The notes below the pieces were generated by a model. That model was not told the origin of the DNA and searched no databases. It saw only the letters and a program-made list of their open reading frames with translations. A stretch of 64,000 nucleotides of DNA from the human T2T-CHM13v2.0 reference genome, Homo sapiens. A program made the position numbers and the translations under genes. Below are positions 39,581 through 64,000 of this stretch, piece after piece (positions within the stretch are counted from its first letter, which is position 1; each line of letters begins with the position of its first letter). The DNA lies in NCBI GenBank assembly GCA_009914755.4, contig CP068257.2:7456001-7520000 (forward strand). Reading direction: 5' to 3'.

Positions 39581-39895
39581 CCCTCCCATCCTTCCATTCC
39601 ATTCCTTGTATTATTGTTCCTTATTTCACTTGTGTATAAGCACACATAATCTATCTGTGCGTATTTATTATTATCTACAAACTTATTGGTCAGATCAATT
39701 ATGAATAAATACATGTTTTTATTGTACCACAATTCCTCCCTCCCATCCTTCCATTCCATTCCTTGTATTAGTGTCACTCATTTCAATTGTGTATAAGCAT
39801 ACATAATCTATCTGTGTGTATTTGTTATTGTCTATGAACTTCTTGGTCAGATCAATTAAGAATAAATACATAGGTTTTTATTGTACCACAATTCT
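39571..39895. repeat. Tandem duplication of about 158 bp, 2 copies
   Basis: cctccctcccatccttccattccattccttgtatt...gtgtataagcacacataatctatctgtg...ggtcagatcaatta...ttttattgtaccacaattc twice. Confidence 0.85.
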
Positions 39896-41064: not shown

Positions 41065-44000
41065 AAGGTCAAACATTCAGACACTCGCAACGACTATAGT
41101 GACAGCAGCAGTCTTCAGGAATCCTATGTGAGGGAAAAACATTCAGACCACAGCAGGAGTGCTCGGGAATCCTATGTGAGGGACAAACATTCAGACCCCA
41201 GCAGTAGTGTTGTGGAATCCTATGTGAGGGGAAAACTTTCAAACCCTTGTAGCAGTGTTCTGCAATCTTATGTGAGGGGCAAAAATTCAGAACCTTGTAG
41301 CAGTGTTCTGGAATCCTATATGAGGAACAATCAGACCACAGCAGGAATGTTCTGGAATCCTATGTGAGGGGCAAACATTCAGACCACAGCAGGAGTGTTC
41401 TGGAATCCTATGTGAGGGAAAAACATTCAGACCACAGCAGGAGTGCTCTGTAATCCTATGTGAGGGACAAACATTTCAAAACCTTGTAGAAGTGTGCTGG
41501 GATGTTATGTCAGGGACAGACATTTAGACCCTCGCAGCAGTGTTCTAGAATCCCATCTGCGGGACAAACATTCAGACACTCGCAGCAGTGTTCTGGAATT
41601 CTATGTGAGGGACAGACATTCAAACCCCAACAGCAGTGTTCTAGAATCCTATGTGAGGGACAGACGTTCAGACCCCAGCAGCAGTGTTCTGGAATCCTAT
41701 GTGAGGTACAAACATTCAGACACCAGCAGAAGTGTTCTGGAATCCTATGTGAGGGACAAACATTCAGACCCTCGTAGCACTGTTCAGGAATCCTATGTGA
41801 GGGACAAACATTCAGACCCTCCTAGCAGTGTTCTGGAATCTTATGTGAGGGACAAACATTCAAACCACAGCAGCAGTGTTCTGGAATCCTACGTGAAGGA
41901 CAAACTTTCAGACCACAGCAGGAGAGTTCTGGAATCCTATGTGAGGGACAAACTTTCAGACCAAAGCAGGAGTGTTCTTAAATCCTATATGAAGGACAAA
42001 CATTCAGACCCCAGGAACACTGTTCTGAAATCCTATGATAAGGGCAAACATTCAGACCCCAACATGAATGTTCTGGAATCCTATGTGAGGGACAAGCATT
42101 AAGACCATAGCAGGAGTATTCTGGAATCCTATGTGAGGGACAAACATTCAGACCCTTGTAGAAGTGTTCTGGAATCCTATGTGATTAAAAAAACATTGAG
42201 ACCACAGCAGGAGTGCTCTGGAATCCTATGTGAGGGACAAACATTCAGACCCCAGAAGGAGTGTTCTGGAATCCTATGTAAAGGACAAACATTCAGACCC
42301 TCGTAGCAGTGTTCTGGAATCCTATGTGAGGGAAAAACATTCAGAACCTCGTAGCAGTGTTCTGGAATCGTATGTGAGGGACAAACATTCAGACCCTCCC
42401 AGCAGTCTTCTGGAATTCTATGTGAGGGACAGACATTCAAACCCCAGCAGCAGGGTTCTGGAATCCGATGTGAGGGACAGACATTCAGACCCCAGCAGCA
42501 GTCTTCTGGAATCCTATGTGAGGGACAAACTTTCAAACACTCATAGCAGTGTTCTGGAATCCTATGTGAGGTACAAACATTCAGACCCTCATAGCAGTGT
42601 TCTGGAATCCTATGTGAGGTACAAACATTCAGACCCTCATAGCAGTGTTCTGGAATACTATGTGAGGGACAACCATTCAGACCATGGCAGTTCTGAAATG
42701 CTATGTGAAGGACAAACATTCACACCCTCGTAGCAGTGTTCTGGAATCCTATGTGAAGGACAGACATTTAGACCCTCGAAGCAGTGTTCTGCAGTCTTAA
42801 GTGAGGAACAAAAATTCAGACCCTCGTAACAGTGTTCTGGAATCCTTTTTTGAGGGACAGACATTGAGACCCCAGCAGCAGTGGTCTGGAATACCATGTG
42901 AGGGACAAACATTCACACCCCAGCAACACTGTTCTGTAATCGTATGTGAGGGACAAGCATTCAGACCCCAGCAGCAGTGTTCTGGAATCTTATGTGAGGG
43001 ACAAACATTGAGACCCTCGTAGCAGTGTTCTGGAATCCTACGTGAGACACAAACATTCGTACCACAGCAGAAGTGTTCCGGAATCTTATGTGAGGGACAA
43101 CCATTCAGATCACAGCAGGAGTGTTCTGGAATCCTTTGTGAGGGACAACCATTCAGACCACAGCAGGAGTGTTCTGGAATCCTATGTGAGGGACAAATAT
43201 TCAGACCTCAGCAGGAGGGTTCTGGAATCCTGTGTGAGGGACCAACATTCAGACCCTCGTAGCAGTGTTCTGGAATGCTATGTGAAAGACAACCATTCAG
43301 ACTCTCATAGCAATGTTCTGGAATCCTATGTCAGGGACATTCAGACCCCAGCCGCAGTGTTCTGGAATCCTATGTGACAGACAAACATTCAGACCACAGC
43401 AGGATCGTTCTGGAATCCTATGTGACAGAAAAACGTTCAGACCATAGCAGTAGTGTTCTGCAATCCAATGTGAGGGACAAACATTCAGAGCCCAGCAGCA
43501 GTGTTCAGGAATCCTATGTGAGGGACCAACAATCAGACCCTCGTAGCAGAGTTCTGAAATCCTATGTGAGGGACAAACATTCAGAACCCAGCTGCAGTGT
43601 TCTGGAATCCTATGTGACAGAAAAACATTCCGACCACAGCAGCAGTGTTCTGGAATCCTATGTACGGTACAAACTTTCAGACCACAGCAGGAGAGTTCTG
43701 GAATCCTATGTGAGGGACAAACTTTCAGACCCCAGGAGCAGTGTTCTGAAATCCTATGTTAAGGGCAAGCATTTACATCCCAGTGTGAATGTTCTCGAAT
43801 CCTAGGTAAGGGACAAACATTCAGACCACAGCAGGAGTGTTCTCGAATCCTATGTGAGGAACAAACATTCAGACCACAGAAGGAGTGTTCTGGAATACAA
43901 TGTGAGGGACATTCAGACCCTCTTAGCAGTGTTCTGGAGTCCTATGTGGTGAGCAAACTTTCAGACCACAGCAGGAATATTCTGGAATCCTATGTGAGGG

Positions 44001-45722
44001 TCAAACATTCAGACCACAGCAGGAGTGTTCTGGAATCCTATGTGAGGGCAAACATTCAGACCCACGTGGCAGTGTTCTGGAATCCTAAGTGAGGGACAAA
44101 TATTCAGACCACAGCAGGAGTGCTCTGGAATCCTATGTGAGGGACAAACATTCAGAACCTCGTAGCAGTGTCCTGAAATCTTATGTGAGGGAGAGACATT
44201 TAGACCCTCGCAGCAGTGTTCTGGTATCCCATGTGAGGGACAAACATTCAGACCCTCCCAGCCATATTCTGGAATTCTATGTGAGGGAAAGACGTTCAAA
44301 CCCCAGCAGCAGTGTTCTGGAATCTGATTTGAGGGGCAGACATTCAGACCCCAGCAGCAGTGTTCTGGAATGCTATGTGAAGGACAAACATTCAGACCAC
44401 GGGAGCAGTGTTCTAGAATCCTACGTGAAGGACAAACATTAAGACTCTCATAGCAGTGTCCTGGAATCATATGTGAGGAACAACCATTCAGACACCAGCA
44501 GAAGTGTTCTGGAATCCTAGGTGTGGGAAAAACATTCAGAACCTAGTAGCAGTGTTCTGGAATCCTATGTGAGGGACATACATTCAGACCACGGCAGCAG
44601 TGTTCTGGAATGGTATGTGAAGGACAAACATTCAGACCCTTGTAGCAGTGTTCCGGAATTCTATGTGAGGGACAAACATTCAGACTACAGCAGCAGTGTT
44701 CTGGAATCCTATATGACGGACCAACGTTCAGACACTTGCAACAGTGTTCTGGAATACTAGGTGAGGGAGAAATATTCACACCCTTGTAGCAGTGTTCTGG
44801 AATTCTATGTGACTGACAAACATTCAGACTCCAGCAGCAGTGTTCTGTAATCCTATGTGAGTGACAAACATTCAGACCCCAAGAGCAGTGTTCTGAAATC
44901 CTATGTTAAGGGAAACATTGAGACCCCAGCATGAATGTTCTGGAATCCTATGTGAGGGACAAACATTCAGACCACGGCAGGAGTATTCTGGAATCCTATG
45001 TGAGGGACAAACATTCAGACTACGGCAGGAGTATTCTGGAATCCTATGTGAGGGACAAACATTCAGACCACGGCAGGAGTATTCTGGAATCCTATGTGAG
45101 GAACAAACATTTAGACCACAGCAGGAGTGTTCTGGAATCCTATATGAGGGATAAGCATTCAGACCCTCGTAGCAGTGTTCTGGAATCCTATGTGAGGGAG
45201 AAGCATTCAGAGCACAGCAGGAGTGCTCTGAAATCCTATGTTAGGGACAAACATTCAGAACCTCGTAACATTGTTCGGGAAACCTATGTGAGGGACAGAC
45301 ATTTAGACCCTCGCAGCAGTGTTCTGGAATCCCATGTGAGGGTCAAACATTCAGATCCTCACAGCAGTGTTCTGGAATTCTATGTGAGTGACAAACTTCC
45401 AGACTCCAGCAGCAGTGTTCTGTATTCCTATGTGAAGGACAAACATTCAGAATCCAGGAGCAGTGTTTTGAAATCATATGTTAAGGGCAAACATACCCTA
45501 GCATCACTGTTCTAGAATCATATGTGAGGGACAGACATTCAGACCCTCGCAGCAGTGTTCTGGAATCCTAGATGGGGGACAAACATTCAGACCCCAGCAG
45601 CAGGCTTCTGGAATCCTATGTGGGGGACAAACATTCAGACAATGGCAGCAGTGTTCTGGAATCCTACGTGAGGGACAAACACTCAGAGCCTTGTAGCAGT
45701 GTTCTGGAATCCTATGTGAGTG
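41065..45722. repeat. 48-bp-unit minisatellite/VNTR array of about 4.66 kb, about 97 copies
   Basis: Unit cattcagaccctcgtagcagtgttctggaatcctatgtgagggacaaa. Variants are concentrated in the gaccNNNgNagNag segment. There are local runs of identical variants (e.g. 44940-45120), indicating recent expansions. The unit lacks stops in 2 plus frames and 1 minus frame. This explains the ORFs 41494-42102, 42230-42733, 44931-45515 and minus 42177-42719, which read as (VLESYVRDKHSDPRSS)n and (HRIPEHCYEGLNVCPS)n. Confidence 0.95.
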
Positions 45723-47040
45723 AGAGTGCCTGGAGCCTACCCAACCTGACGCCCCCAAAGCCCTCACAGGGTCTGACCTCCCAGCATGCACCTGCCTCTC
45801 CCTGAACCCCAACTGCCCACCCTGCCTGTTCCCTGGCCTCCTTCATCCTGTGCAGCCCATAGACTGTGACCATCTCTGCAGCCACTCTGGCTCTTCCTTT
45901 ACCTTTGTCCTTTCAGAATCTCTGAGCAGGATCTCCCAGGTCCATCCAAACACGTGCTTTGTCCACTTTTGACTAGGCCCTTGGGCATCACTGGGCTATC
46001 CCAGCTGTCCACAGGGCCTTCAATAATGCACATTGCACCTGGCTTATCCAAGCAGTGCTCAGCAGCCCACATTGACCAGGTCCCTGCTGACCAGACCCCA
46101 CACATCAGGTCCTCCCTGATGACACCCTCACTGATTAGACCCTCATGACCAGGCCCCACTAACAAGGCCCCCACTGCCAGGCACACAATGACAAGGACTC
46201 CACTGACCAGGACCTTACTGACAAGGTCTCACTGACAAGGCCTCACGGACCAAGTCCTTACTGACAAGTCCTCACTGACTAGGTCATTATTGACAAGGCC
46301 TCACTGATCAGGTTCCACTGATCATGACCTCATTCCCTGGCCCCAAAGATGAGGCCCCACTGACCAGGCCTCCAGGGAACAGGTTGCCACTGATCAGGCC
46401 CCTAATAACCAGGCCTAAGGTCACCAGATGCCCCTGACTGGGACCCTAGTGAGTAGACCCCACTGAACTGGCACCAAATGCTGAGATCCCCGCTGACCAG
46501 GTCACCCTGTAGACCGGTGCTACAAAAGTCACCACTGACCAAGTCCTCTCTGACTAGGACACTACAGATTAGGTCCCACTGACAAGGCTGCCCTGACCAG
46601 GGCCCCACTGACAAGGGCCTCACTGATGAGGACACACCCACCAGGGTCTGCTGACTAGGTTCCATGTGCCCAGTCCTCCACTGAATAGCACCCCTTGACC
46701 TGGTCACCAGTGCCCCAGCCCATGCTGACCAGGCCAGCACTAAGCCCCAGCTGACCAGGTCTCCACTGATCAAGCCCCACAGCCCAGGTTTGCACTGACC
46801 AGACACCAAACAACTGGCAGCCAATAGGTCCCCACTCACCAAAACCCCCACTACTAGACCGCAGTAATGAGACCCTCTCTAAGCAGACCTCTGCTGACCA
46901 CGATCCCACTAAATAGTCCTCACTGACCTAGGTCCACTGACCAGGCCCACACTGATCAGGCCCCTCCTAACCACGCCGGAAATCCAAGCGGCAATGACAT
47001 GTTTCATATGGCAGAAGTTGGAACAAGACAGAGAGAGGAA
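45722..47040 (+). repeat. Duplicated segment, copy A: roughly 350 bp of unique-type sequence plus a degenerate 15-bp minisatellite; paralogous to 60488-61640
   Basis: Collinear, about 85% identity with copy B (e.g. cacctgacgcccccaaagccctcacagggtctgacctcccagcatgcacctgcctctccctgaa... versus cacctgacgcccccacaaccctcatagggtctgacctcccagcatgcacctgcctctccctgaa...). Confidence 0.85.
46090..46975. repeat. Degenerate 15-bp minisatellite (CCACTGACCAGGCCC-like), about 55-60 copies
   Basis: Recurring cactgaccagg / cactgacaagg / cactgatcagg units. Confidence 0.85.
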
Positions 47041-48125
47041 AGAGGTTCCACAGCCTTTTAAACTACTAGATCTCATGAGAACTCACTCACTATCAGGAGG
47101 ATGGCATTAAGGGCTTGGTGCTTTGCCATTTGTGAAGGATCCACTCCCACCCCTTTATGATTAAAACTTTTTCCACCTAGGCCCCGACTCTAACATTAGG
47201 GAGTGTACTTTCACATGAGTTTTGGAAGGGGCATAGAGAAAAACCGTATTATTCTGTCCCTGACCCCACAAATCTCATGTCCTTCTCACATTGCAAGATA
47301 CAGTCATGCCTTGCCAGCAGTCTCCCAAAGTCTTAACTCATTTCAGCATTAACTCAAAGTTACAAAGTCCAAAGTCTCATCTGGGTCAAGGCTACATTCT
47401 CTTTTGCCTACGAGTCTCTGAAATAAAAAGCAAGTTCACTGCGTCTAAGGTACAATGATGGTACAGGCATTGTGTAAGCTTTCCATATCCAAAAGAGAGA
47501 CATTTTCCAGAAAGCTTCTTATTTTTATCTGAGGCCCCCTCAGCCTGGCCTTCACTGTCCATGTTTTTGTCAGCATTCTTGTCACAGCCATTTAACCAGT
47601 CTCTAAGATGGTCCAAAAATGTTCTCATCTGTCTGTCTTCTTTGGAGCCCTCCAAACTCTTCCAACCTCTACCCATTACCCAGTTCCGAAGTTGCTTCCA
47701 CATTTTCAGGTATATTTATAGCAATGCTCCAGTCCTCATTTGCCATTTTTGGTAAGATTTATCTTGAAAAAGAGGTTTAATTGGCTCATGGTTCTGCAGA
47801 GTGGACAGGAAGCTTAGTGCTTCTGCTTCTGGGGGGCCTCAGAAATCTTTCAATCATTGTGCAAGGTAATGAAAGAGTGAATTGTCTCACATGGCAAGAG
47901 GAAATCACGGAGAGTAGGGAGTGATATAGAGTTTTCAGTGGCCAGATCTCACGAGAAGTCACTCATGATTGTGAGGACAGTACCAAGGGGATGGTGCTGA
48001 ACCACTCATGAGAAATTTGCCTTCATGATTCAATCACCTTATACCAGGATCCACCTCCAACATTAGGAAGCATAATTCAACATGAGATTTGGTGGGGACA
48101 CATATTCGAATTGCCTCATCAGTCT
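47000..48125 (-). mobile_element. MaLR (THE1/MST-like) LTR retrotransposon remnant on the minus strand: LTR, short internal region, LTR
   Basis: 47745-48125 matches the reverse-complemented THE1-type LTR (aagaggtttaattg.ctca...atggcaagagg...cacgagaagtcactcat...ccacctccaacattagg...caacatgagatttggtggggacaca). 47040-47290 is a second, more diverged LTR (catgagaactcactcactatcaggagg...aacattagggagtg...). Internal-type sequence lies between them. Confidence 0.65.
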
Positions 48126-49239: not shown

Positions 49240-51900
49240 AGCTGGCCATGTGGTTGGCTCATCCACCAGAATGGATGCTCTGGGTGCTCTTTGAGCCAGC
49301 TTGGCTTTGCCTAGCATGCACAGGCTCCGGGTACCGAAATGTTGCTCTGAGTGAGCTTGTCCTGCCTTGGGCCAAATTCTGTTAGGCCAGGGCCACAAAA
49401 GGCCGAGTCCCACGGGTGGTAATCCTGGCTGCTTTCTGCACTTCCACATAAAGACCTCCTGAAGATGGCCTGTGGTCTACCTCTTTGCAACCAAGAAGCC
49501 CGCAGTGCCATATGAATCCTCAGGCATGGACTGGAGCCCCCGAGGAAGCACACACCCTGCTCCTGAGCCTGCTGCTCATTTTCTCTGTGTGGCTCCATTT
49601 GTGTCACAGTTGTTGCACAGACTTGTGCATGCTGGGCAAGGCCAAGCTGGCTCAAAAAGCAACCAGCCACCTCTGCAAGGTTGTGCCAGGAGCCGGTGGA
49701 CCGGCCACTAACCTCACTCACTGCTGGTTAGGTTACATCAGTTATTCTACCCTAGAGGTAGGGCCCCAGTGCCATATGCTTTTCCTCAGGCCTCTGCTCT
49801 ATCAGTCATCAGGCGGCAACCACTCAGGCTGTGGGAACCTGGCCATCCCTCCTTCCTTGAGTAGCTGAGGTTGCTGGCTTGTCCGCCTACTACAGGCACA
49901 GCCTTGCAGATGTGGCTAGTTGCTCTGAGCCAGCTTGGCCTTGCCTGGCATGCATAGGCCCCAGGTACTGACACTCTGCTCCGAGTCAGCTTGTCCTGCC
50001 TTGGGTCAAATTCTAAGTCTGGCCAGGGCCACAGAAGGCCCAGTCCCCTGGGTGCTAATCTTGGCTGCTTTCTGCACTTGAACATAAAGTCCTCCTCAAG
50101 AAAGCCTGTGGTCTGCCTGTTGGCGACCAAGAAACCTACAGTGCCATACGAGCCCTGAGGCATGGACTGGAGCCACAAAGGCAGTGCACGCCCCATTCCT
50201 GAGCCTGCTGATCATTTCCTCTATATGGCTCCATTTGTAGCACACTTGTTGCAGTGAGGCTTGTGCATGCCAGGCAAGGCCAAGCTGGCTCAAAGAGCAA
50301 GCAGCCACCTCTGCAAGGGTGTGCCAGGAGCAGATGGACCAGCTGCCAACCTCACTCACTGCCAGACGTGGTACATCAGTTCTTCTACCCTAAAGGTGGG
50401 GCCAAGAGGCAGACCACAGGCCATCTTGAGGAGGACTTTATGTTCAAGTGCAGAAAGCAGGCAGGATTACCACCCTGGGTACTTGCCCTTCTGTGGCCCG
50501 CAGTGCCATATGAGCCATGAGGCATGGACTAGTGCCATCTGCTTTATACAAAAAATAACTTAAGATTGATTAAAGAGTTAAATATGCCACCTGCTTTTCC
50601 TCAGGCCTCTGCTCCATCAGGCATCAGGTGGCAGCCACTCATGCTGTTGGAACCTCGCCATCCGGGCTTCCTTGAGCGGGTGAGGTTGCTGGCTTGTCCG
50701 CCTGCTACAGGCACAGCCTTGCAGAGGTGGCTGGTTGCTCTGAGCCAGCTTGGCCTTGCCTGGCATGCATAGGCCCCAGGTACTGACACTCTGCTCCGAG
50801 TCAGCTTGTCCTGCCTTGGGCCAAATTCTAAGTCTGGAGAGGACCACAGAAGGCAGAGTCCCCTGGATGGTAATCCTGACTACTTTCTGCACTTGAACAT
50901 AAAGTCCTCCTCAAGACAGCCTGTGGTCTGCAGCTAGGCAACCAAGAAACCCGCAGTGCCATAGGAACCATGAGGCATTGACTGGAGCCCCAAAGGCAGG
51001 GCACACCCTGTTTCTGAGCCTGCTGCTCGTTTCGTCTATGTGGCTCCGTTTGTTGCACAGTTATTACACTGAGGCTTGTGCATGCTGGGCAAACTCCAAG
51101 CCACTTAGAATTTGGTCCAAGGCAGAACAAGTTCACTGGGAGCAGCGTGTCAGTACCTGGGGCCTGTGCATGCCAGGCAAGGCCAAGCTGCCTTAAAGAG
51201 CAAACAGCCTCCTCTGCAAGGGTGTGCCAGGAGCCGGTGGACCCACCACCAACCTCACTCACTACCAGTCAGAGTACATCAGTTCTTCTACCCTAGAGGT
51301 AGGGCCCAACTGCCATCTGCTTTTCCTCAGGCCTCTGCTTGATCAGCCATCAGGCGGTGGCCACTCATGCTGTGGGAACCTGGCCATCCCTGCTTCCTTG
51401 TGTAGCTGAGGTTGCTGGCTGCTCCACCTCCTCCAGAAGCACCCTTGCAGTGGTAGCTGGTTGCTCTTTGAGCCAGCTTAGCCTTGCCTAGCATGTACAG
51501 GCCCCAGCTACTGACACACTACTCCGAGTGAGCTGGTCCTGCTTTGAGCCAAATTCTAAGTCTGGCCGGGGCCACAGAAGGCCGAGTCCCCTGGGTGGTA
51601 AACCTGGCTGCTTTCTGCCCTTGAACATAAAGTCCTCCTCGGCTGGTCTATGGTCTACCTCTTGGCAACCAAGAATCCTGCAGTCCCATACAAGCCCTGA
51701 GGCATGGACTGGAGCCCCAAAGGCAGTGCACACCCTGCTTCTGAGCTTGCTGCTCATTTCCTCTGTGGGGCTCCATTTTTAGGAAAGTTGTTGCATTGAG
51801 GCTTGTGTATGCCGGGCAAGGCCAAGCTGGCTCAAAAAGCAACCAGCCGCGTTTGCAAGGGTGTGCCTGAAGTGGTTGGATTAGCCATCAACGTTGCCCA
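49240..51900. repeat. Complex tandem array of a roughly 640-bp unit, about 4 copies; each unit carries internal inverted sub-repeats
   Basis: The direct motif tgtgcatgctgggcaaggccaagctggctcaaa occurs at about 49622, 50262, 51160 and 51800. Its reverse complement gagccagcttggccttgcc...catgcacagg occurs at about 49283, 49918, 50742 and 51470. A second inverted pair, cctggctgctttctgcacttgaacataaagtcctcctc versus its reverse complement, occurs at about 50412. Confidence 0.85.
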
Positions 51901-51959: not shown

Positions 51960-52450
51960 GAGGTTGGTGGCCTAGGTTTTCTTCTAGATTTTTTATGGTT
52001 TTAGGTCTTACTTCTAACTCTTTCATCCATCTTACTTAATTTTTGTTTAAGGTGTATGGGTGTGGCCCAGTTTCAGTTTTCTGCATTTGGCTAGCCAGTT
52101 TTCCCAACACCATTTATTAAATAGGGTATCCTTTCCCATTGCTTGTTTTTGTCAGGTTTGTCAAAGATCAGATGCTTTTAGATGTGTGGTGTCATTTCTG
52201 AGGGCTCTGTTCTGTTCCATTGGTCTATAGATCTGATTTGGTACCAGCCCCATGCTGTTTTGGTTACTGTAGCCTTGTAGAATAATTTGAAGTCAGGTAC
52301 TGTGATGCCTCTAGCTTTGCTGTTTTTGCTTAGGATTGCCTTGGCTATGTGGGCTCTTTTTTGGTTCCATATGAAATTTAAAGTAGTTTTTCTAATTCTG
52401 TGAAGAAAGTAATGGTAGCTTGATGGGGACAGCAATGAGTCTATAAATTA
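51960..52450 (-). mobile_element. L1PA insertion, inverted 5' segment (twin-priming product)
   Basis: Reverse complement of an L1 ORF2 region roughly 4600-5150 of a full element: ...agccagttttcccaacaccatttattaaatagggtatcctttcccattgcttgtttttgtcaggtttgtcaaagatcagatg... Its source region is immediately upstream of that of the adjoining plus-strand segment. Confidence 0.8.
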
Positions 52451-53580
52451 CTTTGGGTGGTATAGCAGTCAGGCACAGAAATGTCCTTGTGTTAGGCAAT
52501 ACCATTCAGGACATAGCCATGGGCAGAGTCTTCATCACTAGAACACCAAAAGCAATGGCTACAAAAACCAAAATTTACAAATGGGATCTAACTAAACTTA
52601 AGAGTATCTGCAGTGCAAAAGAAACTATTATCAGAGTGAACAGGCAACCCACAGAATGGGAGAACATTGTTGCAATCTATCCATCTGACAAAGGGCTAAT
52701 ATGCAGAATCTACAAAGAACAAATTTACAAGAAAAAAAAAACCATCAAAAAGTGAGCAAAGGGTATGAACAGACACTTACCAAAGAAGACATTTATACAG
52801 CCAACGAACATGTGAAGCAAAGCACATCATCACTGGTCATTAGAGAAATGGAAATCAAAACCACAATGAGATACAATCTCACACCACTTAGAATGGTCAT
52901 CGTTAAAAAATCAGGAAAAAACAGATGCTAGAGAGGATGTGGAGAAATAGCAAAGCTTTTACACAGTTGGTGGGAATATAAATTACTTCAACCATTGTGG
53001 AAGACAGTGTGACAATTCCTCAAGGATCTACAACTAGAAATATCATTTGACCCAGCAATCCCATTACTGGGTATATACCCCCAAAATTATAAATCATACT
53101 AATATAAAGACACATGAACCTGTCTGTTTATTGCGGCACTGTTCACAACAGCAAAGACTTGGAACCAACCCAAATGCCCACCAATGATAGACTGGATAAA
53201 GAAAATGTGGCATATATACACCACGAAATACTATGCAGCCATAAAAAGGGATGAATTCACGTCATTTGCTGGGACATGAATGAAGCTGGAAACCATCATT
53301 TTCAGCTAACTAACAGAAGAACAGAAAACCAAACACCACATGTTCTCACTCATAACTGGGAGTTGAACAATGGGAACACATGGACACAGGAAGGGGAACA
53401 TCACACACCAGGGCCTGTCAGGGTGGGGGGCTAGGAGAGGGATGGCATTAGGAGAAATAACTAATGTAGATCATGGGTTGATGGATGCAGCAAGCCGCCA
53501 TGGCATGTGTATACCTATGTAACCTGCATGTTCTGCACATGTACCCCAGAACTTAAAGTATAATTTAAAAAAAAAAAGAA
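52450..53580 (+). mobile_element. L1PA insertion, direct 3' segment (ORF2 C-terminus plus 3' UTR plus poly-A)
   Basis: ggcaataccattcaggacatagccatgggc... through ORF2 C-terminal peptides (ORFs 52453-52755 and 52701-52931) to the 3' UTR and A11 at about 53570. Confidence 0.9.
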
Positions 53581-54649: not shown

Positions 54650-57600
54650 TCTTCTGTTTTCCATTTGCTTGAAAGATTTTTCACCATTCCTTCATTTTGA
54701 GCCTATGTATGGCACTGCATGTGAGATGGGTTTCTTGGAGACAGCATACTCAAATGGGTCTTTGTTCTTTATCCAGCTTGCCCCCCTGTGTCTTTCAATC
54801 GGAGCATTTAGCCCATTTCCATTTAAGGTTAGTAATGGTATGTGTGGATTAGATCCTGTCGTCATGCTGTCAGCTAGTTATTTTGCAGACTTGTGTATGT
54901 GGTTGGTTTTTAGCATTACTGGTCTGTGTACTTCGGTGCATTTTTGTAGTGGCTGGTGATGGTCTTTTCTTTCCATATTTAGTGCTTCATTCAGGAGCTC
55001 TTGTAAGGTAGATCTGGTGATAATGAATTCTCTCAGCATTTGCTTGTCTGAAAAGGATCTTGTTTCTCCTTCACTTATGATGCTTAATTTTGCTGGACAT
55101 GAAATTCTGGGTTGAAATTTCTTTTTCTTTTAACCATGTATAATAACACCATGTTATTATATGGTATATCTGTCTCTGCCATACTACGTGAAATTTCTTT
55201 TCTTTAAGAAGTTGAATATCTTTTCTGGCTTGTAGGGTTTCAGCTGAGAAGTCTGCTAAGTCTGATGGAATTCCCTTTGCAGGTGACGTTGCCTTTCTCC
55301 CTAGCTGCCTTTAACAGTGTTTCTTTCATTTTGACCTTGGAGAATCTGATGATTATATGTCTTGGGGATGATCTTCTCATGGCTTATCTTACTGAGGTTC
55401 TCTGGATTTCCTGAATTGGAATGTTGGCCTGTCTGGATAGGTTGGGGATATTCTCATGAATGATATTCTGAAGTATGTTTTCCAAGTTGGTTCCATTCTC
55501 CTCATCTCTTTCACGTACACTAATCAGTCATAGATTTGGTCGTTTATATAATCTCATATTTCTTGGATGTTTTGTTCATTCATTTTCCTTCTTTTTTCCC
55601 CCATTCTTGTCTGCCTGTTTTATTTCAGAAAGCCAGTTTTCAAGCTCTGGGATTCTTTCCTCTGCTTGGTCTATTCTGCTGGGTGGTCTTGCACATGAGA
55701 TGGAGCTGGTGTGACAGTCCTCCTTAGTCTGCTTGCCTCTCCCAGGACCCCAGCCTGGCCACACCTGCTTACAGGGCAATCTCAGGTGCCCACACACACT
55801 ACAATAATTTTCATAATGCAATCACACATAATCACTATGTGACTGCATTATGAAAATTCTTGTAGTGTGCTTTTCAGCTCTATTCGGTCGGTTATGTCTT
55901 CTTTATACTTGCTATTTTGTCTGTTAGCTCCTACAATGTGTTACAATGATTTTTAGCTCACTTGTATTGCATGACAACATACGTCTTTCACTCAGTGAAC
56001 TTTGTTCCTACGCATATCCTGAACCCTGCTTGTATCATTCCAGACAGCTCAGCCTCAGCCCAGTTCTGAACACTTGCTGGAGAGTTGATACAGTCATTTG
56101 GAGGAAAGAAAGCATGCTGACTTTTTGAGTTTTCAGTGTTCTCGCACAGATTCTTTCTCATCTTTATGGGCTTATCCACCTTCCATCTTCGAGGTTGCTG
56201 ACCTTCGGACAGGGTATTTTTGTTTTATTGTATTTGATGATCTTGAGGGTTTCATTGTGGGATAAGGTGGATTCAACCAACTGGCTTTGTTTTTGGAGGA
56301 TTTTAGGGGGGCCAATGTGCAGCTTCCAATTCCTGGACTGTGTGCTTTAACTCTGGGGAACTTGTCTTGGGCCCCAACTTTGTTCTCTGGCTCTTGGAGG
56401 TTTGGAGTCCACTGCACTGAGGGGACCAAAGTGTGGCAACTGTGGCAGAATGCTAGTGGATGCAGAAGTCCCTGCCTCCCTGCGGGCATTCACGCAGTGG
56501 TGGAGGCAAGACAGCTGGGGTGTGGGCCAGGGGTCCCCTGCTGTGTGTGTGTTGCACTGGAGGTAGTGTTGGTTCAGGGTGGGCTGCTGGCCAGTGCAGG
56601 CCATGGTGCCTTCTCTGTGCCCCTCAAAGCAACAGTGGTCACTCAGGGTATAAGAAGGTCCCTTTTTCTCTGCACAGAATTAGCTCAAGGGTTAGGTGCT
56701 GGCAGGGGTGGGGTTCTTGGTTCTGTGCCCACCAAGGCTCTGTCTTCAATGGCAGTTGGTGTGGGTTGGGGTGTGTCCTGCACTCCCCTGTGCTGTCAGG
56801 GCAAGTACAGCAAAACCCACATGTGTAAACACACACAGCAAAGTGATGTAGGAAGTTTCCATATAAAGGGCTGCAGTATGGAGACGTAATGTGCAGGCTG
56901 GTGCGTGGCTGTTGGGGCCACCTTGCTGCAGCTCTCCACTGATCAGGTACAGTCCACTAGCACGGAAGCTATGCTGTGGGCATCCGAGAGTGCCCTGTAT
57001 GCAGGTGTGGCCAGGCTGGGGTCCTGGGAGAGGCAAGCAGACAAAGGAGTGCTGATATCAGACCAGCCCCATCTCATGTGCAAGACTGCCCAGCAGAGAT
57101 CAGGTCTCAGAGGAGAACTCTCTCAAAAGTGAACCCCCGGCACAGCATAGCTGCTTTACACAAACATGGCCAGGCTTCTTTTTTAAGCAAGTCCCCTTTT
57201 TGAGGAGGGGAACTCTGGGACCTGATCTCTGCTGGGCAATCTTGAACATGAGATGGGGCTGATCTGAACTTAGCATTCCTAAAGTGCTGGGATAAAGTAT
57301 CTCACAAGGGCACGTGGAGCCTAGAGAGATAGGTGTCCCTGCTCTCTGGGCTCCACATCACCTGACTTGCTGTTCCACCACTCCGCTTGTCTCCTGGGTA
57401 CTCCATCCCATAGAGATGTGAGTTAGCAATCACTTAGAGTAATCAGCCCAGGATGGAGGGTCTGTGTTGTGAGGCCAAGCCAGTGTTCCCTCTCTGGTGA
57501 TGAGCAGTGGGGGGTGTGTGGTACCCGTGGGAGATGGACTGGCTTGTTCATTGGGTCAACCGCAGCTTATTGGAGGTGTCAATATGGCACTTAGGGTCTT

Positions 57601-58700: not shown

Positions 58701-59589
58701 GAGTTCATCTTGTTTGATGGAGTTTAATTTTTAGCCTATTAATTTTACTGTCTACATTAGACTTGTTCGGAAAGAATCTGCTATATTTTAGGTTAGATAT
58801 ATGAGAATTCATTGTTTTCTGTAAATAAACCTGTTCATGTCTTGTTCTCTGGAAAGAAATCTCTTTCAACTATCTGACTTTGGTCACAGTCATGTAGAGC
58901 AGTATCCAGTCTATAATGACAATTGAATTTCCATTTCCAGTGTTTTGTTTTTGTGTCTTACATTGTACAGTTCAGAAATGAGCATTTTATTCCCAATTGT
59001 CAAAATGCTAAGCTGTCCACTGTACTGAAATACTGTTTTTGTTAATGCTTCGTCATTCAATTTTTTTTAAGGTGAACACTTTTATCCAACTTTTCTCAAG
59101 TCAGAGTACAGGTAAGCCCTGGCTGCCTCGAACCACTCTCAGAGAGACCAAAACCCTTCATACATTCCAAGTTGGGATACAAAAAAGTGGGGCCATGAAG
59201 GCTAGTCATTCAAAATAAAACAAAATTTAAAAGTATTAAGGCAAAGATTTAAAAAAATTTGCATTATGTAATTTACACAAAAGCAATGCTATCGCCTACC
59301 ATGTGTGAACTCGGGAGAGGACTGGGCCATTCTCCTTAGAGAGAAGTAGGGTGGCTTTTAGGAGGGCAAGGGACTTCCTGAAACAGTGCATCTCACAATA
59401 TTTGGAATGACTATTGAAAAGAAGAACATTGTACAATCAAAGTCCTTGGCAACATTGTAGAACTAGCGGGTGCTGACCCCTGAGCCACAACCACAGTTCT
59501 GGGTTTGGGGTTTGGTAAAACCACCCCAAGGACAGAGTTCTGGGGCCGGGTTTTGGAGGAACCAAGACGCCTCCCAGGGATGGTGTGTC

Positions 59590-59905
59590 ACTCCTGCTTG
59601 CCATGAAATGTGCACACAGTCTGTCCCCCTGCCCATCCCATCCTGCTGGACAGGATGGAGGAAGTGAGGGAACAGGCAGGGTGGACAGCTGGAATTCAGG
59701 GAGAGGCAGGTGCATGCTGGGAGGTCAGGACCTGTGAGGGCTGTGGGGGCATCAGGTGGAGTGGGCTCCAGGTGCACCCTCAGTGCACAGGGCAGGTCTC
59801 AGGCCAGGCTCCCTGGACCCCGGCTGGGTGATGTGGTCACTCCCTGGGGGACTGCTGTCAGACCCTGGCCACCCTCCCTGGGCAGCACCGTCCCATCCCA
59901 GAACT
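59590..59905 (-). repeat. Inverted partial copy (arm L) of the duplicated module; forms a palindrome with 60355-60640
   Basis: The reverse complement of 59600-59900 aligns with 60360-60640 (gggatgggac.gtgct.cccag.g.gggtg.ccag...tgaccacatcacccg.cc..ggtccagggagcctgg...ctgagggtgcacctggagcccac.ccacctga.gcccccaca.ccctca.aggtc.tgacctcccagcatgcacctgcctctccctgaa). Homologous ORF peptides (...RERQVHAGRSDP.R.VGASGGVGSRCTLSA.GRS..RLPGP..GDVVT...) occur on opposite strands. Confidence 0.8.
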
Positions 59906-60354
59906 GGACATTCTGAGTCCTAAAACAGGACAGTGCTGCCCAGGCCTGACAGACTGGGAGGACCTGTGAAGTCCTCCATCCCTAGACCAGCCTCCCAACA
60001 GCAGGGACAGTCTCCTACCTTTACCTTCAGGGCACTGACTGGTACATCTCATTCTAAGGCAACCAAGGCAGAGCTGAGGACCTGTGCCAGGCTGGGAGCC
60101 AGTCCTCTCCCTAAATGGGCCTTAGGGAAGCCTCATGCCTGTCCCAGTGCACTGCAAGTTTCAGCCCAGGAGACACATAGGGAAGTGAGGACGGGGCCTC
60201 CCCACTGGCTGACCCTGGAAAAGTGGGACCTGGGAGAAGAGGGAGTGCAGGGCTGGCAGGGGATGCTCCAGGCCCATGGAGAGCTCAGGCTGCACCAAGG
60301 GGCTTCCCCTCCTGGGCTGGAGGCTGTGCCCTCTGCAGTATCTGAGGAAGTCCA

Positions 60355-60640
60355 GTCCTGAGATGGGACAGTGCTACCCAGAGTGGGTGTCCAGCACCTG
60401 ACAACAGTCTCCCAGCAAGTGACCACATCACCCGACCAAGGTCCAGGGAGCCTGGGCCAAGACCTGCCCAGTGCGCTGAGGGTGCACCTGGAGCCCACAC
60501 CACCTGACGCCCCCACAACCCTCATAGGGTCTGACCTCCCAGCATGCACCTGCCTCTCCCTGAAACCAAGCTGCCCACCCTGCCTGTTCCCTGGCCTCCT
60601 CCATCCTGTGCAGACCATAGACTGTGACTATCTCTCCGAC
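60355..60640 (+). repeat. Arm R of the palindrome; continuous with duplicated-module copy B
   Basis: See arm L above. A roughly 450-bp spacer (59905-60355) separates the arms. Confidence 0.8.
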
Positions 60641-61640
60641 CACTCTGGCCCTTCCTTTACCTTTGTCCTGTCAGAATCTCTGAGCAAGATCTCCCAGGTC
60701 CATCCAAACACCTGCTTTGTCCACTTTTGACTGGGCCATTGAACACCACTGGGCCACCCCAGCTGTCCACAGGCTCCTCGATAACATGCATTTCCCCTGA
60801 CATCTCCCAGCAGTACTCAGCAGCCCCCACTGACCAGGTCCCTGGTGACCAGTTCCAGCATATCACTTCCTCCCTGACCACACCCTCACTGATTAGAGCC
60901 CCATCACCAGGCCTCACTAACTAGATTCCCGCTGCCAGGCCCACAATGACCAGGACTCCACTGACGAGGACCTTACTGACAAGGCCTCACTGGCAAGGCC
61001 TCACTGGCAAGGCCTCACTGACGAGGTCCTTACTGACAAGGCCTCACTGATCAGGTTCCACCGATCATGACCCCATTGTCTGGTCCCACAGATGAAGCCC
61101 CACTGGCCAGGCCTGCAGGGAATAGGCAGCCAGTGACCAGGCCCCTGCTAACCAGGACTGAGGTGACAAGATGCTCCTGACTGGGACCCTAATGACTACG
61201 CCCCACTGAACAGGCACGCACTGCTCAGATCCCCGCTGACCAGGTCACCCCGTAGACCAGTGCTACAAAAGCCACCAATGATCAAGTCCTCTCTGACCAG
61301 GCCCCCACTGATTAAGTTCCAAGGACCAGCCTGCCCTGACCAGGGCCCCACTGACAAGCGTCTCTGCTGACTAGGTCCCAAGGTCTCCACTGACCAAGTC
61401 CCACAGCCCAGGTTGGCACTGACCAGACACCAAACATTTGTCTACCACTATCAACCCACTCACCAAGGCATGCACTACTAGATCCCTCTAATGAGACCCG
61501 CTCTAAGCAGACCCCTGCTGACCACCCCCCACTAAATAGGCCTCACTGACAAGTCCCAACTGACTAGGTCCCCTGAGCAGGCCCACACTGATCAGGCCCC
61601 TCCTAACCATATCAGAAGACCAAGAGGCAATGAGATGTTT
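60488..61640 (+). repeat. Duplicated segment, copy B (paralogous to 45722-47040), including its own 15-bp minisatellite (about 60830-61620)
   Basis: Collinear alignment with copy A through the unique part, the minisatellite and into the downstream LTR. The minus ORFs 45899-46186 and 60657-60917 encode homologous peptides (...SEGV.RE....WS.GTWS..AAE.C......IE.PVDSW..PV...VKSGQS.CLDGPGRSCSEIL.GQR) purely because of the duplication. Confidence 0.85.
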
Positions 61641-64000
61641 CATATGGCAGGAGTAGGAGCAAGACAGAGAGGGGAAAGAGGCATGACATCCTGTTAGACA
61701 ACCAGATCACATGAGAACTCACTATCAGGAGATCAGCATCAAGAAGACTAACCAATGGTGAAGGATTCTCCAACCACACCACCGCCCACTGCTTCCAGGC
61801 AGAAGCCTCCTGCAGAGGCAGAACCTCTTATGAAACTTCCACTATGGCAGTGCAGAAGGAAAATATAGGCTTTGAGCCCCCACACAAGAGGTCACGATCC
61901 TCCAGACTCCAGATTAATAAGCCCACCAACAGCTCACACTCTGAGTATGGAAAAGCTACAGGCACTCAACACCAACCCAGCCCATGAGAGCAGCCATGGG
62001 GGCTACACCCTGCAAAGTCACAGGTGCACTCTCCTAGTAGAGGTTTCCCATGAGCCTCTGCCTCTGCAGCAGGTTACTCCCACCCTCCCACCACCCTACT
62101 GACAACCTACTCCTCCCCACACTATCCCTCCTTTTCCTTCCACCCCAACCCCCTCTCATCCAAGATTAAGTCACCTCCCACCTGGCCCACCTCCAACATT
62201 AAGGATGACACGTGAGTTTTATAGGGACACACAGCCAACCCATATTATTCTGACCCTGATTCCCCAGAACCTCATGTCCTTCTCACAGAGCAAAACACAA
62301 TCATGCCTTTTCAAAAGTTTCCAAAAGTCTTAACTCATTCCGAATGTAAAAATTTCAAAATCTCATCTGAGACAAGGTTACAGTCCCTTCTGCCAATGAG
62401 TCCCTGAATTTAAAAGGGATTTCTTTTCCTTCAAGGTAGAACAGGCATTGGGTAAGGTTTCTCAATCCAAAGGGAAGAAGTTGCCCAGAAAAATAACACA
62501 AATGCAAGTCCAAAACCCAGCAGGACAGTATTCACTCAATCTCACAGCTCCAAAATCATCAAGAGGACTCACTGTCGTGCGGACAGCATTAAGGAGATAG
62601 TGTTTACTCATTTGTGAAGAATCTGCCCCCCACCTTCACCTTTCACTCCCACCCACAAAATAATCTCTCCCATTCTCCCCACACCCCTACCTCCAACACC
62701 CACTCTTCTCCATGATTAAATCACCTCCCACCAGTTCCCACCTTTAACATTCCCCACTACAATTCCACATGAGCATGGGTAGGGACACAGAATCAAATTA
62801 TATTATTCTGGCTCTTGCTCCCCAAATCTTGTATCCTTGTCACACTGCAAAATACACTGATGACTTCTCTACTGTCCCCCAATGACTTAACTCATTCCAG
62901 CATTTACTGAAATGTACAAGGACTTACAGACCCCATGCAAGTCAAAAACCCAGCAGGCCAGTCATTGAATCCTGCAGCTCCAAATCATCTTTTCTGAATC
63001 TACATCTCACATCTAGAGCACAGGTGTGTGATGCCTGGGCTTCCAAGGCCTTGGGCAGCTCTGCACCTGTGGCTGTGCAGGGTCTATACCCCACAGCTGC
63101 CCTCATGGGCTGGGCTGATGTTGAGTGCCTGTAGCATTTCCATACTAAGGGTGCCAGCTGTTGGTGAGTCTATGAATCTGGAGTCTGGAGAATGGTGCCT
63201 CCATATTTAGGGACTCCAGCCCTAAATTCTCCTTCGGTACTGCCCTAGTAAAAGTTTCCCATGAGGCTCTGCCTCTTGGAAAAGATTTTGTGTGAACACC
63301 CAGGTTTTTCCGTACATACTCTGGAGTCTAGACAAAGGCTTGCAAGCTTCTAGTTTTGTGCTGTGTGCAGCTGCTGGCTTAACACTATGTGGAAGCCACC
63401 AAGCCTTGAAGCTTGCACCCCTGAAGCAGTGATGCAAGCTGTACCTGTGCATCTTTCAGCCAAGGCTGGAGCTGGAGCTTCAGGAATGCAGCCAGCAGTG
63501 TCCTGAGGTTGGACATAGCAGTGGGGCCATGGGGCTGGAGAAGGAAACCATTCTTTTCTCCCAGGCCTCAGGGCCTGTGATAGCAAGGGCTGCTGCAAAA
63601 GTCTCTGAAATGCCTTCAAGACCTTTTTAACATTGTATTGGCTATTAGCACTGAACTCCTTTTTATGCACATTTCTGAAGACTTTTTGAACTTTCCCACT
63701 GATAATCAGCTTTTCTTTTTGGCCACTTGGCCAGGCTTCAAATTATCCAAACTTTTAAGCTCTCCTTCTCATTTAAATACAAGTTTCACCTTGAGGTCAT
63801 TTCTTTGGTCACATATAGGACCACAGGCTGTTCGACACAGACAGGAAACCTCTTAAGCTTTGCTGCCTAAAATTTCATTCCACCAAATACACTCTAAATT
63901 ATCACCCTGATGTTCAAAATTTCACAGGTCTCCAGGTTAGGGGCATTGTGCAGCAACAATCTTTGCTAAGAAAAAAACAAAAGTGACCTTGACTCCTGTT
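61640..64000 (-). mobile_element. MaLR-type LTR retrotransposon sequences (LTR, internal, LTR, long internal) on the minus strand, extending to the window end
   Basis: gcaatgagatgtttcatatggcagg...catgagaactcactatcaggag... parallels 47000-47300. A second LTR start lies at about 62560 (...tcacctcccaccagttcccacc.ttaacattcc...). 62790-64000 is long internal-type sequence matching the shorter internal segment at 47290-47745. Confidence 0.55.

What the first reader, a model, noticed from the sequence alone, without database searches (positions are those of the whole stretch)
59590..60640. A palindrome at the left edge of duplication copy B: roughly 300-bp inverted arms around a 450-bp spacer
A third, inverted partial copy of the first 300 bp of the duplicated module lies immediately upstream of copy B. 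It gives an arm-spacer-arm structure capable of hairpin or cruciform formation. Such inverted duplications are breakpoint signatures (fold-back, or template switching during replication) and are fragile. The arms carry reciprocal-strand ORFs of 119-161 aa that encode the same peptide, a purely structural artefact.
Basis: seen in the sequence. Interest (0 to 1): 0.5.

Follow-up and report, generated by a model that had tools for sequence, protein, structure and literature searches.

The report
Old inverted duplicate in a pericentromeric duplicon
The inverted repeat is real, but it is an ordinary relic tens of millions of years old: a ~300-base piece was copied backwards and inserted ~420 bases upstream of its source, then carried passively through many later duplications. 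It is not a fresh or fragile breakpoint.

Summary
Arms 59646-59917 and 60342-60613 are 272 nt, 232/272 identical (85.3%), without indels, around a 424-nt spacer; this is far beyond chance.

A 22-mer scan of metagenome contigs recovered 89 human-derived contigs.
- All 21 contigs holding both arms keep a 423-425-nt spacer and 82-90% arm identity. That includes paralogues ~10-13% diverged from the window, so the structure formed once, long ago (about 33-83 Myr by arm divergence), and has been stable.
- Only two sequence types flank its left side, so it is not a dispersed transposable element.
- Two diverged homologues (L064, L073) keep the flank, spacer, right arm and module but lack window 59589-59925. 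The left arm is therefore the derived inverted insertion and the right arm is the source.
- The copy A/copy B homology edge (60477) lies inside the right arm, because a 48-bp satellite array truncates copy A.
- The arms pair as single-stranded DNA, but 85% identity with a 424-nt spacer falls outside the range that is unstable in duplex DNA.
- The ORFs are mirror-image artefacts.

Some contigs join the arms to swapped partners. Real exchange cannot be separated from assembly chimeras. Interest is low.

The parts
59646..59917 (-). Left arm: the derived, inverted copy of 60342-60613 (272-nt ungapped core)
   Evidence: 232/272 identical to the right arm with no indels. Absent from the Z-type homologues L064 and L073.
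59589..59925 (.). The 337-nt segment present here but missing in the arm-less homologues. It comprises the left arm, 57 nt on its outer side (a weak gapped continuation of the inverted copy with a 21-nt indel) and 8 nt on its inner side.
   Evidence: BLAST and global alignments of L073 and L064 against an X+U+aL+S+aR composite open their gap at w59589 in both contigs. The outer extension is shown.
59918..60341 (.). Spacer S, 424 nt, 59% G+C by eye. This is ancestral sequence lying between the insertion site and the source.
   Evidence: Spacer length is 423-425 nt in all 21 two-arm contigs. It is homologous to S* in the Z-type contigs at 74-78%. It shows no significant internal palindrome beyond the arms (inferred).
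60342..60613 (+). Right arm: the source copy, contiguous with the spacer upstream and the module downstream
   Evidence: It aligns over 271/272 positions in the Z-type contigs that lack the left arm. It continues into the module in copy B and, from position 136, in copy A.
60614..61743 (+). Remainder of module copy B, including a degenerate 14/15-nt minisatellite (CACTGACCAGGCCC-like) from about 60820 to 61610
59462..59588 (+). Segment U (first 127 nt), the ancestral left flank of the insertion site. The duplicon junction W|U lies at 59461/59462.
   Evidence: There are only two flank types left of 59462: W in 13 contigs plus the window, and X in 25 contigs. U aligns to the Z-type contigs at 61%.
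45721..47111 (+). Module copy A. Its first 137 nt (45721-45857) correspond to arm positions 136-272, and the rest of the arm is replaced by the satellite array.
   Evidence: The satellite|arm junction is identical in 29 contigs.
41103..45720 (+). 48-bp satellite array (96.6 units), consistent with the CER satellite. It truncates copy A.
   Evidence: Tandem Repeats Finder. CER is described as a 48-bp satellite of acrocentric short arms and the chr14/22 pericentromeres in PMC3847771 and PMC6942050. I did not compare the sequence with a CER consensus.
59880..59943 (.). Small hairpin at the inner edge of the left arm: CTGGGCAGCACCGTCC (59880-59895) pairs with GGACAGTGCTGCCCAG (59928-59943). The second element is a 15/16 direct repeat of 60366-60381 in the right arm.
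   Evidence: Direct-repeat family D9 (23/28) and the sequence. The S-side copy has a diverged counterpart in the Z-type contigs, so it is probably ancestral. It may have served as homeology during the event (inference).

Best explanation
This is an ancient local inverted insertional duplication that now behaves as an inert relic. The ancestral sequence read flank (X)-U-S-a'-M. A ~300-nt piece covering a' (now 60342-60613, plus about 10-30 nt beyond its outer end) was copied in reverse orientation and inserted ~420 nt upstream, between U and S. That produced U-[inverted copy]-S-a'-M. The event happened once, tens of millions of years ago, roughly 33-83 Myr from the arm divergence. The whole block was then copied repeatedly as part of a primate pericentromeric or acrocentric segmental-duplication family, and the two arms drifted apart independently to about 85% identity. 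In this window copy B keeps the structure. Copy A lost everything left of arm position 136 at a junction with a 48-bp satellite array.

Shown:
- The arms, their identity and their boundaries.
- Constant geometry across paralogues.
- Only two left-flank types.
- Two homologues that lack exactly the left-arm segment.

Inferred:
- The molecular mechanism. The most likely route is a replication-based double template switch (FoSTeS/MMBIR-like). Capture of a reversed fragment at a double-strand break is the alternative. There is no target-site duplication, and at 15% divergence junction microhomology can no longer be read.
- The absence of any present function.
For: - Arms are 272 nt, 85.3% identical, indel-free and sharply bounded.
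- Chance is excluded: 311 bits observed against at most 36.5 in shuffles.
- All 21 contigs carrying both arms have a 423-425-nt spacer and 82-90% arm identity. These include L034, L069 and L081, whose segments are only 82-91% identical to the window.
- In diverged paralogues both arms carry mixtures of the window's L and R states, as expected if the arms kept diverging after the paralogues split.
- L073 and L064 are 88.7% identical to each other. They align to X, the first 127 nt of U, S and the right arm with scores of 634 and 425, against 59-77 for shuffles. They lack w59589 to about 59940, and the gap opens at w59589 in both.
- Only two flank types lie left of U in 38 contigs.
- There are few CpGs in the arms, K2P is 0.166 and non-CpG JC is 0.147.
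- Alu elements are present in the window.
- Rfam and Pfam show nothing in the region.
Against: - The supporting contigs are low-coverage metagenome assemblies of a multi-copy human sequence and are visibly mosaic: identity varies from 97.8% to 99.7% per kb within single contigs, and A/B state patterns are patchy.
- The empty-site inference rests on only two contigs. L073 changes abruptly from ~70% to ~96% identity at w60215, so it may itself be a composite.
- In L064 the right arm is about as close to the window's arms (86-88%) as those arms are to each other, whereas its X, U and S segments are much more diverged (61-78%). The region's history therefore includes exchange or rate heterogeneity that I have not resolved.
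- Over the 127 columns shared by all three window copies, the left arm is the outlier (R-A 92.1%, L-R 89.0%, L-A 87.4%; 9/5/3 informative sites). A simple 'copied from B after the A/B split' history does not predict this, although the counts are too small to be significant.
- I could not compare the sequence with a repeat library (Dfam/Repbase) or a complete human assembly.
Confidence: 0.75

Rival explanations
1. One reading: a recent fold-back or template-switch breakpoint that marks the left edge of duplication copy B and remains a fragile, cruciform-prone palindrome.
For: The structure is an inverted duplication lying next to copy B. The single strand folds with the arms fully paired, at -358 kcal/mol against -212 +/- 5.7 for shuffles. 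A duplicon junction (W|U) lies 184 nt to the left.
Against: The arms are only 85% identical. Identical geometry is conserved in paralogues up to ~10-18% diverged. The A/B homology edge at 60477 lies inside the arm and is caused by the satellite junction in copy A. In yeast Alu-IR assays, recombination in duplex DNA falls ~300-fold when the spacer grows from 12 to 100 bp, and it declines exponentially with divergence (PMC10164571).
Confidence: 0.04
2. The structure is derived from a transposable element. Either two oppositely oriented copies of one interspersed repeat are present, or a-S-a' is a ~970-bp element with 272-nt terminal inverted repeats (foldback or MuDR-like).
For: Long terminal inverted repeats around a short core are typical of foldback and Mutator-like elements. 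About 7% divergence per arm is similar to that of the youngest primate DNA transposons (my recollection, not tested here).
Against: An exact 22-mer scan returned 89 contigs, but only two left-flank types (W, X) and a handful of right-side partners. A family with many insertions would give many unrelated flanks. The Z-type homologues retain S and a' and lack only the left arm, so a-S-a' did not insert as a unit. The right arm is contiguous with the module in both lineages. No target-site duplication is visible at either pair of edges.
Confidence: 0.06
3. The palindrome is ancestral to all copies, and the Z-type loci lost the left arm later through a deletion.
For: Inverted repeats can stimulate deletions. 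Only two arm-less contigs are known. Three-way site patterns make the left arm the outlier, which is compatible with an early origin.
Against: The missing segment coincides with the inverted copy itself and leaves the spacer and right arm intact. Hairpin-driven deletions usually remove the centre, or one arm together with the spacer. Z-type X, U and S are more diverged from the palindrome-bearing family (61-78%) than the arms are from each other (85%), so Z probably split off first.
Confidence: 0.1
4. The inverted repeat is maintained because it does something, for example as a long hairpin RNA or small-RNA precursor, or as a recombination or inversion switch between paralogous duplicons.
For: The arms pair strongly as a single strand. 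Geometry is strictly conserved. Nine contigs join the arms to swapped partners through hybrid arms. Two repeat-derived miRNA families are annotated elsewhere in the window.
Against: The arms diverge at about the neutral expectation, with no compensatory pattern or arm-to-arm homogenisation. Rfam gives no match. Constant spacer length is also what neutral descent from one event predicts. The swapped contigs are explicable as assembly chimeras of a multi-copy sequence at 1-20x coverage.
Confidence: 0.05

Closest known systems
Local inverted duplications produced by replication template switching (FoSTeS/MMBIR; short 'template switch mutations')
   Same: The copy is in reverse orientation, lies within a few hundred bases of its source, has no target-site duplication, and an allele-like homologue lacks it.
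   Different: At ~300 nt it is larger than typical short template-switch mutations and much smaller than the kb-to-Mb inverted duplications of genomic disorders. Junction microhomology is no longer readable at 15% divergence, so the mechanism is inferred.
Closely spaced inverted Alu pairs (Lobachev-type Alu-IRs)
   Same: The arm length (~300 nt) and level of divergence match the classes tested. The arms can anneal when single-stranded.
   Different: The arms are not Alu or any identified interspersed repeat. The 424-nt spacer and 85% identity put the structure in the class that is stable in duplex DNA and could interact only inside long single-stranded tracts (PMC10164571).
Palindromic AT-rich repeats (PATRRs) and other cruciform-forming fragile palindromes
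   Same: Inverted symmetry in a pericentromeric, duplication-rich setting.
   Different: PATRRs are AT-rich, near-perfect and essentially spacerless (my knowledge). This structure is G+C-rich, 85% identical, has a 424-nt spacer, and has been stable across many paralogues.
The large inverted repeat of the rDNA distal junction (DJ) on acrocentric short arms
   Same: It lies in the same kind of genomic neighbourhood (CER satellite blocks) and is a diverged inverted repeat of ~80% average identity (PMC3847771).
   Different: DJ arms are ~109 kb and carry mirrored transcription units. Here the arms are 272 nt and nothing shows that the window lies in the DJ.
DNA transposons with long terminal inverted repeats (foldback or Mutator-like non-autonomous elements)
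   Same: An arm-core-arm layout of about 1 kb.
   Different: There is no dispersal to unrelated sites, no target-site duplication, and homologues retain the core and one arm.

Membership tests
Local inverted insertional duplication (template-switch type) | A second copy of a nearby segment in reverse orientation | tested here: met
   272 nt at 85.3% identity, 424 nt from the source.
Local inverted insertional duplication (template-switch type) | A homologous locus without the copy but with both flanks contiguous (empty site) | tested here: met
   L064 and L073 lack w59589-59925 but retain X, U, S, a' and M. Only two contigs support this.
Local inverted insertional duplication (template-switch type) | Microhomology or templated filler at the junctions | tested here: inconclusive
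   The junction sequences were read. A 15/16 direct repeat occurs at the start of S and in the right arm. Divergence is too high to assign microhomology.
Interspersed transposable element (two inverted copies, or one element with long TIRs) | Many copies at unrelated genomic sites | tested here: not met
   89 contigs give only two left-flank types and a few recurring right partners.
Interspersed transposable element (two inverted copies, or one element with long TIRs) | Target-site duplication at the element edges | tested here: not met
   No direct duplication is present at 59588/59589 with 59925/59926, or outside the arms.
Interspersed transposable element (two inverted copies, or one element with long TIRs) | Match to a curated repeat consensus (Dfam/Repbase) | not testable with these tools
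   No repeat library is available. The REP522 papers hold no sequence.
Cruciform-prone fragile palindrome (PATRR / short-spacer IR) | Near-identical arms | tested here: not met
   85.3% in the window and 82-90% in 21 contigs.
Cruciform-prone fragile palindrome (PATRR / short-spacer IR) | Spacer of zero to a few tens of bases | tested here: not met
   424 nt in the window and 423-425 nt in all paralogues. The benchmark comes from PMC10164571.
Cruciform-prone fragile palindrome (PATRR / short-spacer IR) | Observed instability (deletions or rearrangements centred on the symmetry axis) | tested here: not met
   Geometry is invariant among paralogues. The swapped-partner contigs switch in the outer part of the arms, not at the centre, and may be artefacts.
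Structured RNA gene (miRNA or long hairpin RNA) | Match to a curated RNA family, or compensatory conservation of pairing | tested here: not met
   Rfam with gathering and permissive thresholds gives nothing significant at 58.5-62.5 kb. The arms diverge without homogenisation. Expression is not testable here.
CER-satellite-associated pericentromeric/acrocentric duplicon | Adjacent array of 48-bp satellite units | tested here: met
   Array at 41103-45720, period 48, 96.6 copies. The consensus was not compared.
CER-satellite-associated pericentromeric/acrocentric duplicon | Chromosomal position on acrocentric short arms or the chr14/22 pericentromeres | not testable with these tools
   No human reference genome is available in the tool set.

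The most novel reading that the evidence does not exclude
The diverged 272-nt arms act as recurrent exchange points between paralogous copies of this duplicon. Because the right arm of one copy is inverted relative to the left arm of another copy lying in the same orientation, exchange between them would invert the intervening chromosome segment and create two junction types, U-a-S-a'-U'-X' and M'-a-S-a'-M. Both types are seen: five contigs of the first (L056, L057, L063, L075, L076) and four of the second (L008, L009, L042, L078), all with hybrid arms. If real, a small and 'harmless-looking' 85% inverted repeat would be shaping large-scale structural variation in pericentromeric or acrocentric regions. 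That would fit the yeast finding that divergent, widely spaced IRs interact in single-stranded DNA.
Probability: 0.15. Interest if true: 0.4.

Novelty: new member of a known kind. Interest (0 to 1): 0.15.

Why it matters
It matters little on its own. It is a clean, datable example of a small inverted insertional duplication with an identifiable empty site, and it became fixed before a pericentromeric duplicon family expanded. That makes it a useful cladistic marker for ordering those duplications: presence or absence of the 337-nt insert, the W|U junction and the satellite|arm junction are each single events. It also illustrates that an 85%-identical inverted repeat with a 424-nt spacer can persist unchanged in geometry for tens of millions of years. 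The only route to wider interest is the unproven possibility that the arms mediate exchanges between paralogues.

Tried and rejected
- **Chance match:** rejected by shuffles.
- **Palindromic spacer:** a permissive self-alignment runs through the spacer at ~70% overall. By my arithmetic that is ~56% within the spacer, which is not above background.
- **Rest of copy A's arm left of the satellite array:** no match to 59000-60476 anywhere else in the window.
- **Transposable element:** rejected on flank diversity and the empty-site structure.
- **First global alignment of Z contigs:** it was mis-anchored because I cut inside U*, and gave spurious 70% matches to the arm. The MAFFT three-way alignment also forced unrelated columns. 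I redid this with full anchors and shuffled controls.
- **Deciding whether swapped-partner contigs are real:** switch points lie partly at the 34-nt identical run (arm positions 190-223) and partly where the window's arms share only 4-16 nt. However, the contigs are mosaics of paralogues, so this is inconclusive.
- **Which lineage copy A belongs to:** 98%-similar relatives without the satellite appear with arm-less (L064), diverged-palindrome (L067) and window-like-palindrome (L010, L068) upstream sequence. This is unresolved.
- **Coding potential:** no Pfam hits for the four local ORFs or for ten of the longest stop-free segments in the window outside the satellite array, and no ankyrin-like motifs.
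- **RNA families:** nothing in the region.
- **REP522 as a candidate named repeat:** the papers give no sequence.
- **One literature query failed on syntax**.
- **Large protein-database searches not run:** they could not have assigned species to hits, so they could not date the event.

Full report
**Observation.** The window is primate DNA. Six Alu 5' ends match against none expected, and the 89 related contigs come from metagenome assemblies, the two whose titles are shown being human skin and human gut. An inverted repeat is present at the stated place. The arms are 59646-59917 and 60342-60613, 272 nt each, separated by 424 nt. They align without a single indel. 232/272 positions are identical (85.3%), with 26 transitions and 14 transversions, giving K2P 0.166. 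Similarity collapses to 34-40% immediately outside the arms. Nine of the next ten outer bases still match, and a weak gapped continuation with a 21-nt indel reaches about 59610. The best inverted match in 30 Markov shuffles of the surrounding 4 kb was 36.5 bits against 311 observed.

**Surroundings in the window.** A 4.6-kb array of 48-bp units occupies 41103-45720. Its period and context fit the CER satellite of acrocentric short arms and the chr14/22 pericentromeres (PMC3847771, PMC6942050). I did not compare it with a consensus. Rfam places mir-1299 inside the array and mir-3118 at 55795-55869.
- Module 'copy A' starts directly at the end of the array, and 45721-47111 matches 'copy B' 60477-61743.
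- The A/B homology therefore begins at arm position 136, inside the right arm. The right arm extends 135 nt further left than anything present in copy A.
- Nothing to the left of the array resembles 59000-60476.
- The palindrome is thus not the edge of the duplication. Copy A's edge is a junction with the satellite.

**Related sequences.** I scanned the metagenome collection for a 22-mer that is invariant in all three copies. It returned 89 contigs, the two whose titles are shown coming from human skin and gut assemblies, matching the window at up to 98.9%. I annotated them with a segment library:
- W = 58862-59461
- U = 59462-59645
- aL, S and aR = left arm, spacer and right arm
- MB and MA = the start of module copy B and copy A
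- X = the alternative left flank, which is absent from the window
- CER = the 48-bp satellite array

Four results matter.
1. All 21 contigs that hold both arms have a spacer of 423-425 nt and arm-to-arm identity of 82-90%. These include L034, L069 and L081, whose segments are only 82-91% identical to the window. The structure arose once, before these paralogues separated. It has kept its geometry since, with no arm-to-arm homogenisation.
2. Only two sequences ever lie to the left of U. W occurs in 13 contigs plus the window, and X occurs in 25 contigs whose anchors are 83-99% identical to the window. A dispersed transposable element would show many unrelated flanks.
3. The satellite|arm junction at arm position 136 is identical in 29 contigs, so it was a single event.
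4. At the 40 sites that distinguish the window's arms, diverged paralogues carry mixtures of 'left' and 'right' states in both arms. This is expected if the arms started identical and kept diverging after the paralogues split.

**Polarity of the event.** Two contigs, L073 and L064, are 88.7% identical to each other. They represent a more diverged homologue that I call Z. Global alignment against an X+U+aL+S+aR composite scores 634 and 425, against 59-77 for shuffled controls.
- X aligns at 69-73%, the first 127 nt of U at 61%, S at 74-78%, and the right arm over 271/272 positions at 86-93%.
- Window 59589 to about 59940 is essentially unaligned, and the gap opens at 59589 in both contigs.
- The missing piece is the left arm plus 57 nt on its outer side and 8 nt on its inner side.

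So the right arm is original sequence, contiguous with S and M, and the left arm is a derived inverted insertion between U and S. Secondary deletion in Z is less parsimonious, for two reasons. The missing piece coincides with the inverted copy while leaving the spacer intact. Z is also more diverged from the palindrome-bearing family than the arms are from each other.

**Age and stability.** The arms contain only 2 and 3 CpGs, and the non-CpG JC distance is 0.147. At 1.0-2.2 x 10^-9 substitutions per site per year, a range I chose from general knowledge, this gives roughly 33-83 Myr.

As single-stranded DNA the 1-kb segment folds with the arms paired end to end (-358 kcal/mol against -212 +/- 5.7 for shuffles, z = -25.6). 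Hairpin potential is therefore real for a single strand. For duplex DNA, the yeast Alu-IR benchmark reports about a 300-fold loss of IR-induced recombination when the spacer grows from 12 to 100 bp, and an exponential decline with divergence. Only inside long single-stranded tracts do IRs of at least 75% identity with long spacers still interact (PMC10164571). Taken with the invariant geometry among paralogues, 'fragile' is not supported.

**Mechanism.** The following are shown: a reverse-oriented copy ~420 nt from its source, an empty-site homologue, and no target-site duplication. From these I infer a replication-based double template switch (FoSTeS/MMBIR-like). Capture of a reversed fragment at a break is the alternative. 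A 16-nt motif, GGACAGTGCT[G/A]CCCAG, occurs at the start of S (59928-59943) and in the right arm (60366-60381). Together with its inverted copy in the left arm (59880-59895) it forms a small hairpin at the inner junction. The S-side motif has a diverged counterpart in Z, so it may be pre-existing homeology that guided the switch. This is speculation.

**ORFs.** The 104-aa ORF on the minus strand of the left arm and the 119-aa ORF on the plus strand of the right arm share 40/62 residues through arm symmetry. None of the four local ORFs has a Pfam match. The 161-aa ORF has no mirror partner. I agree that these are artefacts.

**Unresolved.** Nine contigs join the arms to swapped partners. Five are of the form ...S-a'-U'-X', and four are of the form M'-a-S.... 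All have hybrid arms. These are the two junction types expected from exchange between the mutually inverted arms of two paralogues.

However, the contigs are low-coverage assemblies of a multi-copy sequence and are demonstrably mosaic. Identity within a contig varies from 97.8% to 99.7% per kb, and A/B states are patchy. Many switch points fall at the 34-nt identical run in the arms. I cannot separate real exchange from chimeras.

The same caveat applies to which upstream sequence the ancestor of copy A carried.

**Verdict.** This is a real but ordinary feature: an ancient, inert inverted insertional duplication embedded in a satellite-associated primate segmental-duplication family. I could not run a repeat-library or whole-genome comparison, and those remain the decisive checks.

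Noticed in passing
window 41103-45720: A 48-bp satellite array (96.6 units, ~80% matches between units), consistent with the CER satellite, with an Rfam mir-1299 hit inside it at 42587-42669. At least eight related contigs (for example L002, L006, L015, L018) skip window 42522-44304, about 37 units. Array length therefore differs among paralogues or haplotypes, or the array is collapsed in assembly.
   Followed up: partly
window 45720/45721: The junction between the satellite array and position 136 of the arm is identical in 29 independent contigs. It was a single rearrangement that truncated the copy-A lineage, and sequence to the left of the array is unrelated to the palindrome region.
   Followed up: partly
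window 59461/59462: A sharp duplicon junction lies 184 nt left of the left arm. 13 contigs share the window's flank (W), while 25 have a different common flank (X) that is absent from the whole window. Those 25 include contigs 98-99% identical to the window on the right-hand side of the junction.
   Followed up: partly
loci L056, L057, L063, L075, L076 and L008, L009, L042, L078: These contigs attach the arms to swapped partners (U-a-S-a'-U'-X', or inverted module-a-S) through hybrid arms. They are either reciprocal products of exchange between inverted arms of different paralogues or de Bruijn assembly chimeras.
   Followed up: partly
window 55795-55869: Rfam mir-3118 precursor match above the gathering score (96.6 bits). 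A preprint states that miR-3118 copies overlap L1 elements (10.1101/2021.12.09.471935), and MIR3118 paralogues are listed next to the POTEB genes in 15q11 (PMC12549039). I found no ankyrin-like or other coding remnant in the window.
   Followed up: partly
window 49280-51880: A G+C-rich tandem repeat with a long period of roughly 0.63-0.82 kb, with copies 82-88% identical. Its identity is unknown.
   Followed up: no
window 46060-46980 and 60820-61610: The interior of both module copies is a degenerate 14/15-nt minisatellite (CACTGACCAGGCCC-like, with 29- and 43-nt higher-order periods).
   Followed up: no
window 39284-39894: Two adjacent short tandem arrays: period 100 with 3 copies, and period 157 with 2 copies, at ~90% matches.
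   Followed up: no
window 2434-4007 versus 51970-53572: Adjacent segments match a distant region at ~86%, one part inverted (2434-2924 vs 52457-51970) and the next part direct (2920-4007 vs 52493-53572). This suggests another small rearranged duplication or a rearranged interspersed repeat.
   Followed up: no
window 59880-59943: A 16-bp stem (one mismatch) with a 32-nt loop lies exactly at the inner edge of the left arm. Rfam's only suggestion there is an insignificant mir-4662 match (E = 0.86).
   Followed up: partly
all loci L001-L089 versus the window: No contig exceeds ~98.9% overall identity to the window, and the longest exact run is 657 nt. The residual 1-2% may be paralogy, haplotype difference, mosaic assembly or a very close non-human source. 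I could not tell which.
   Followed up: partly
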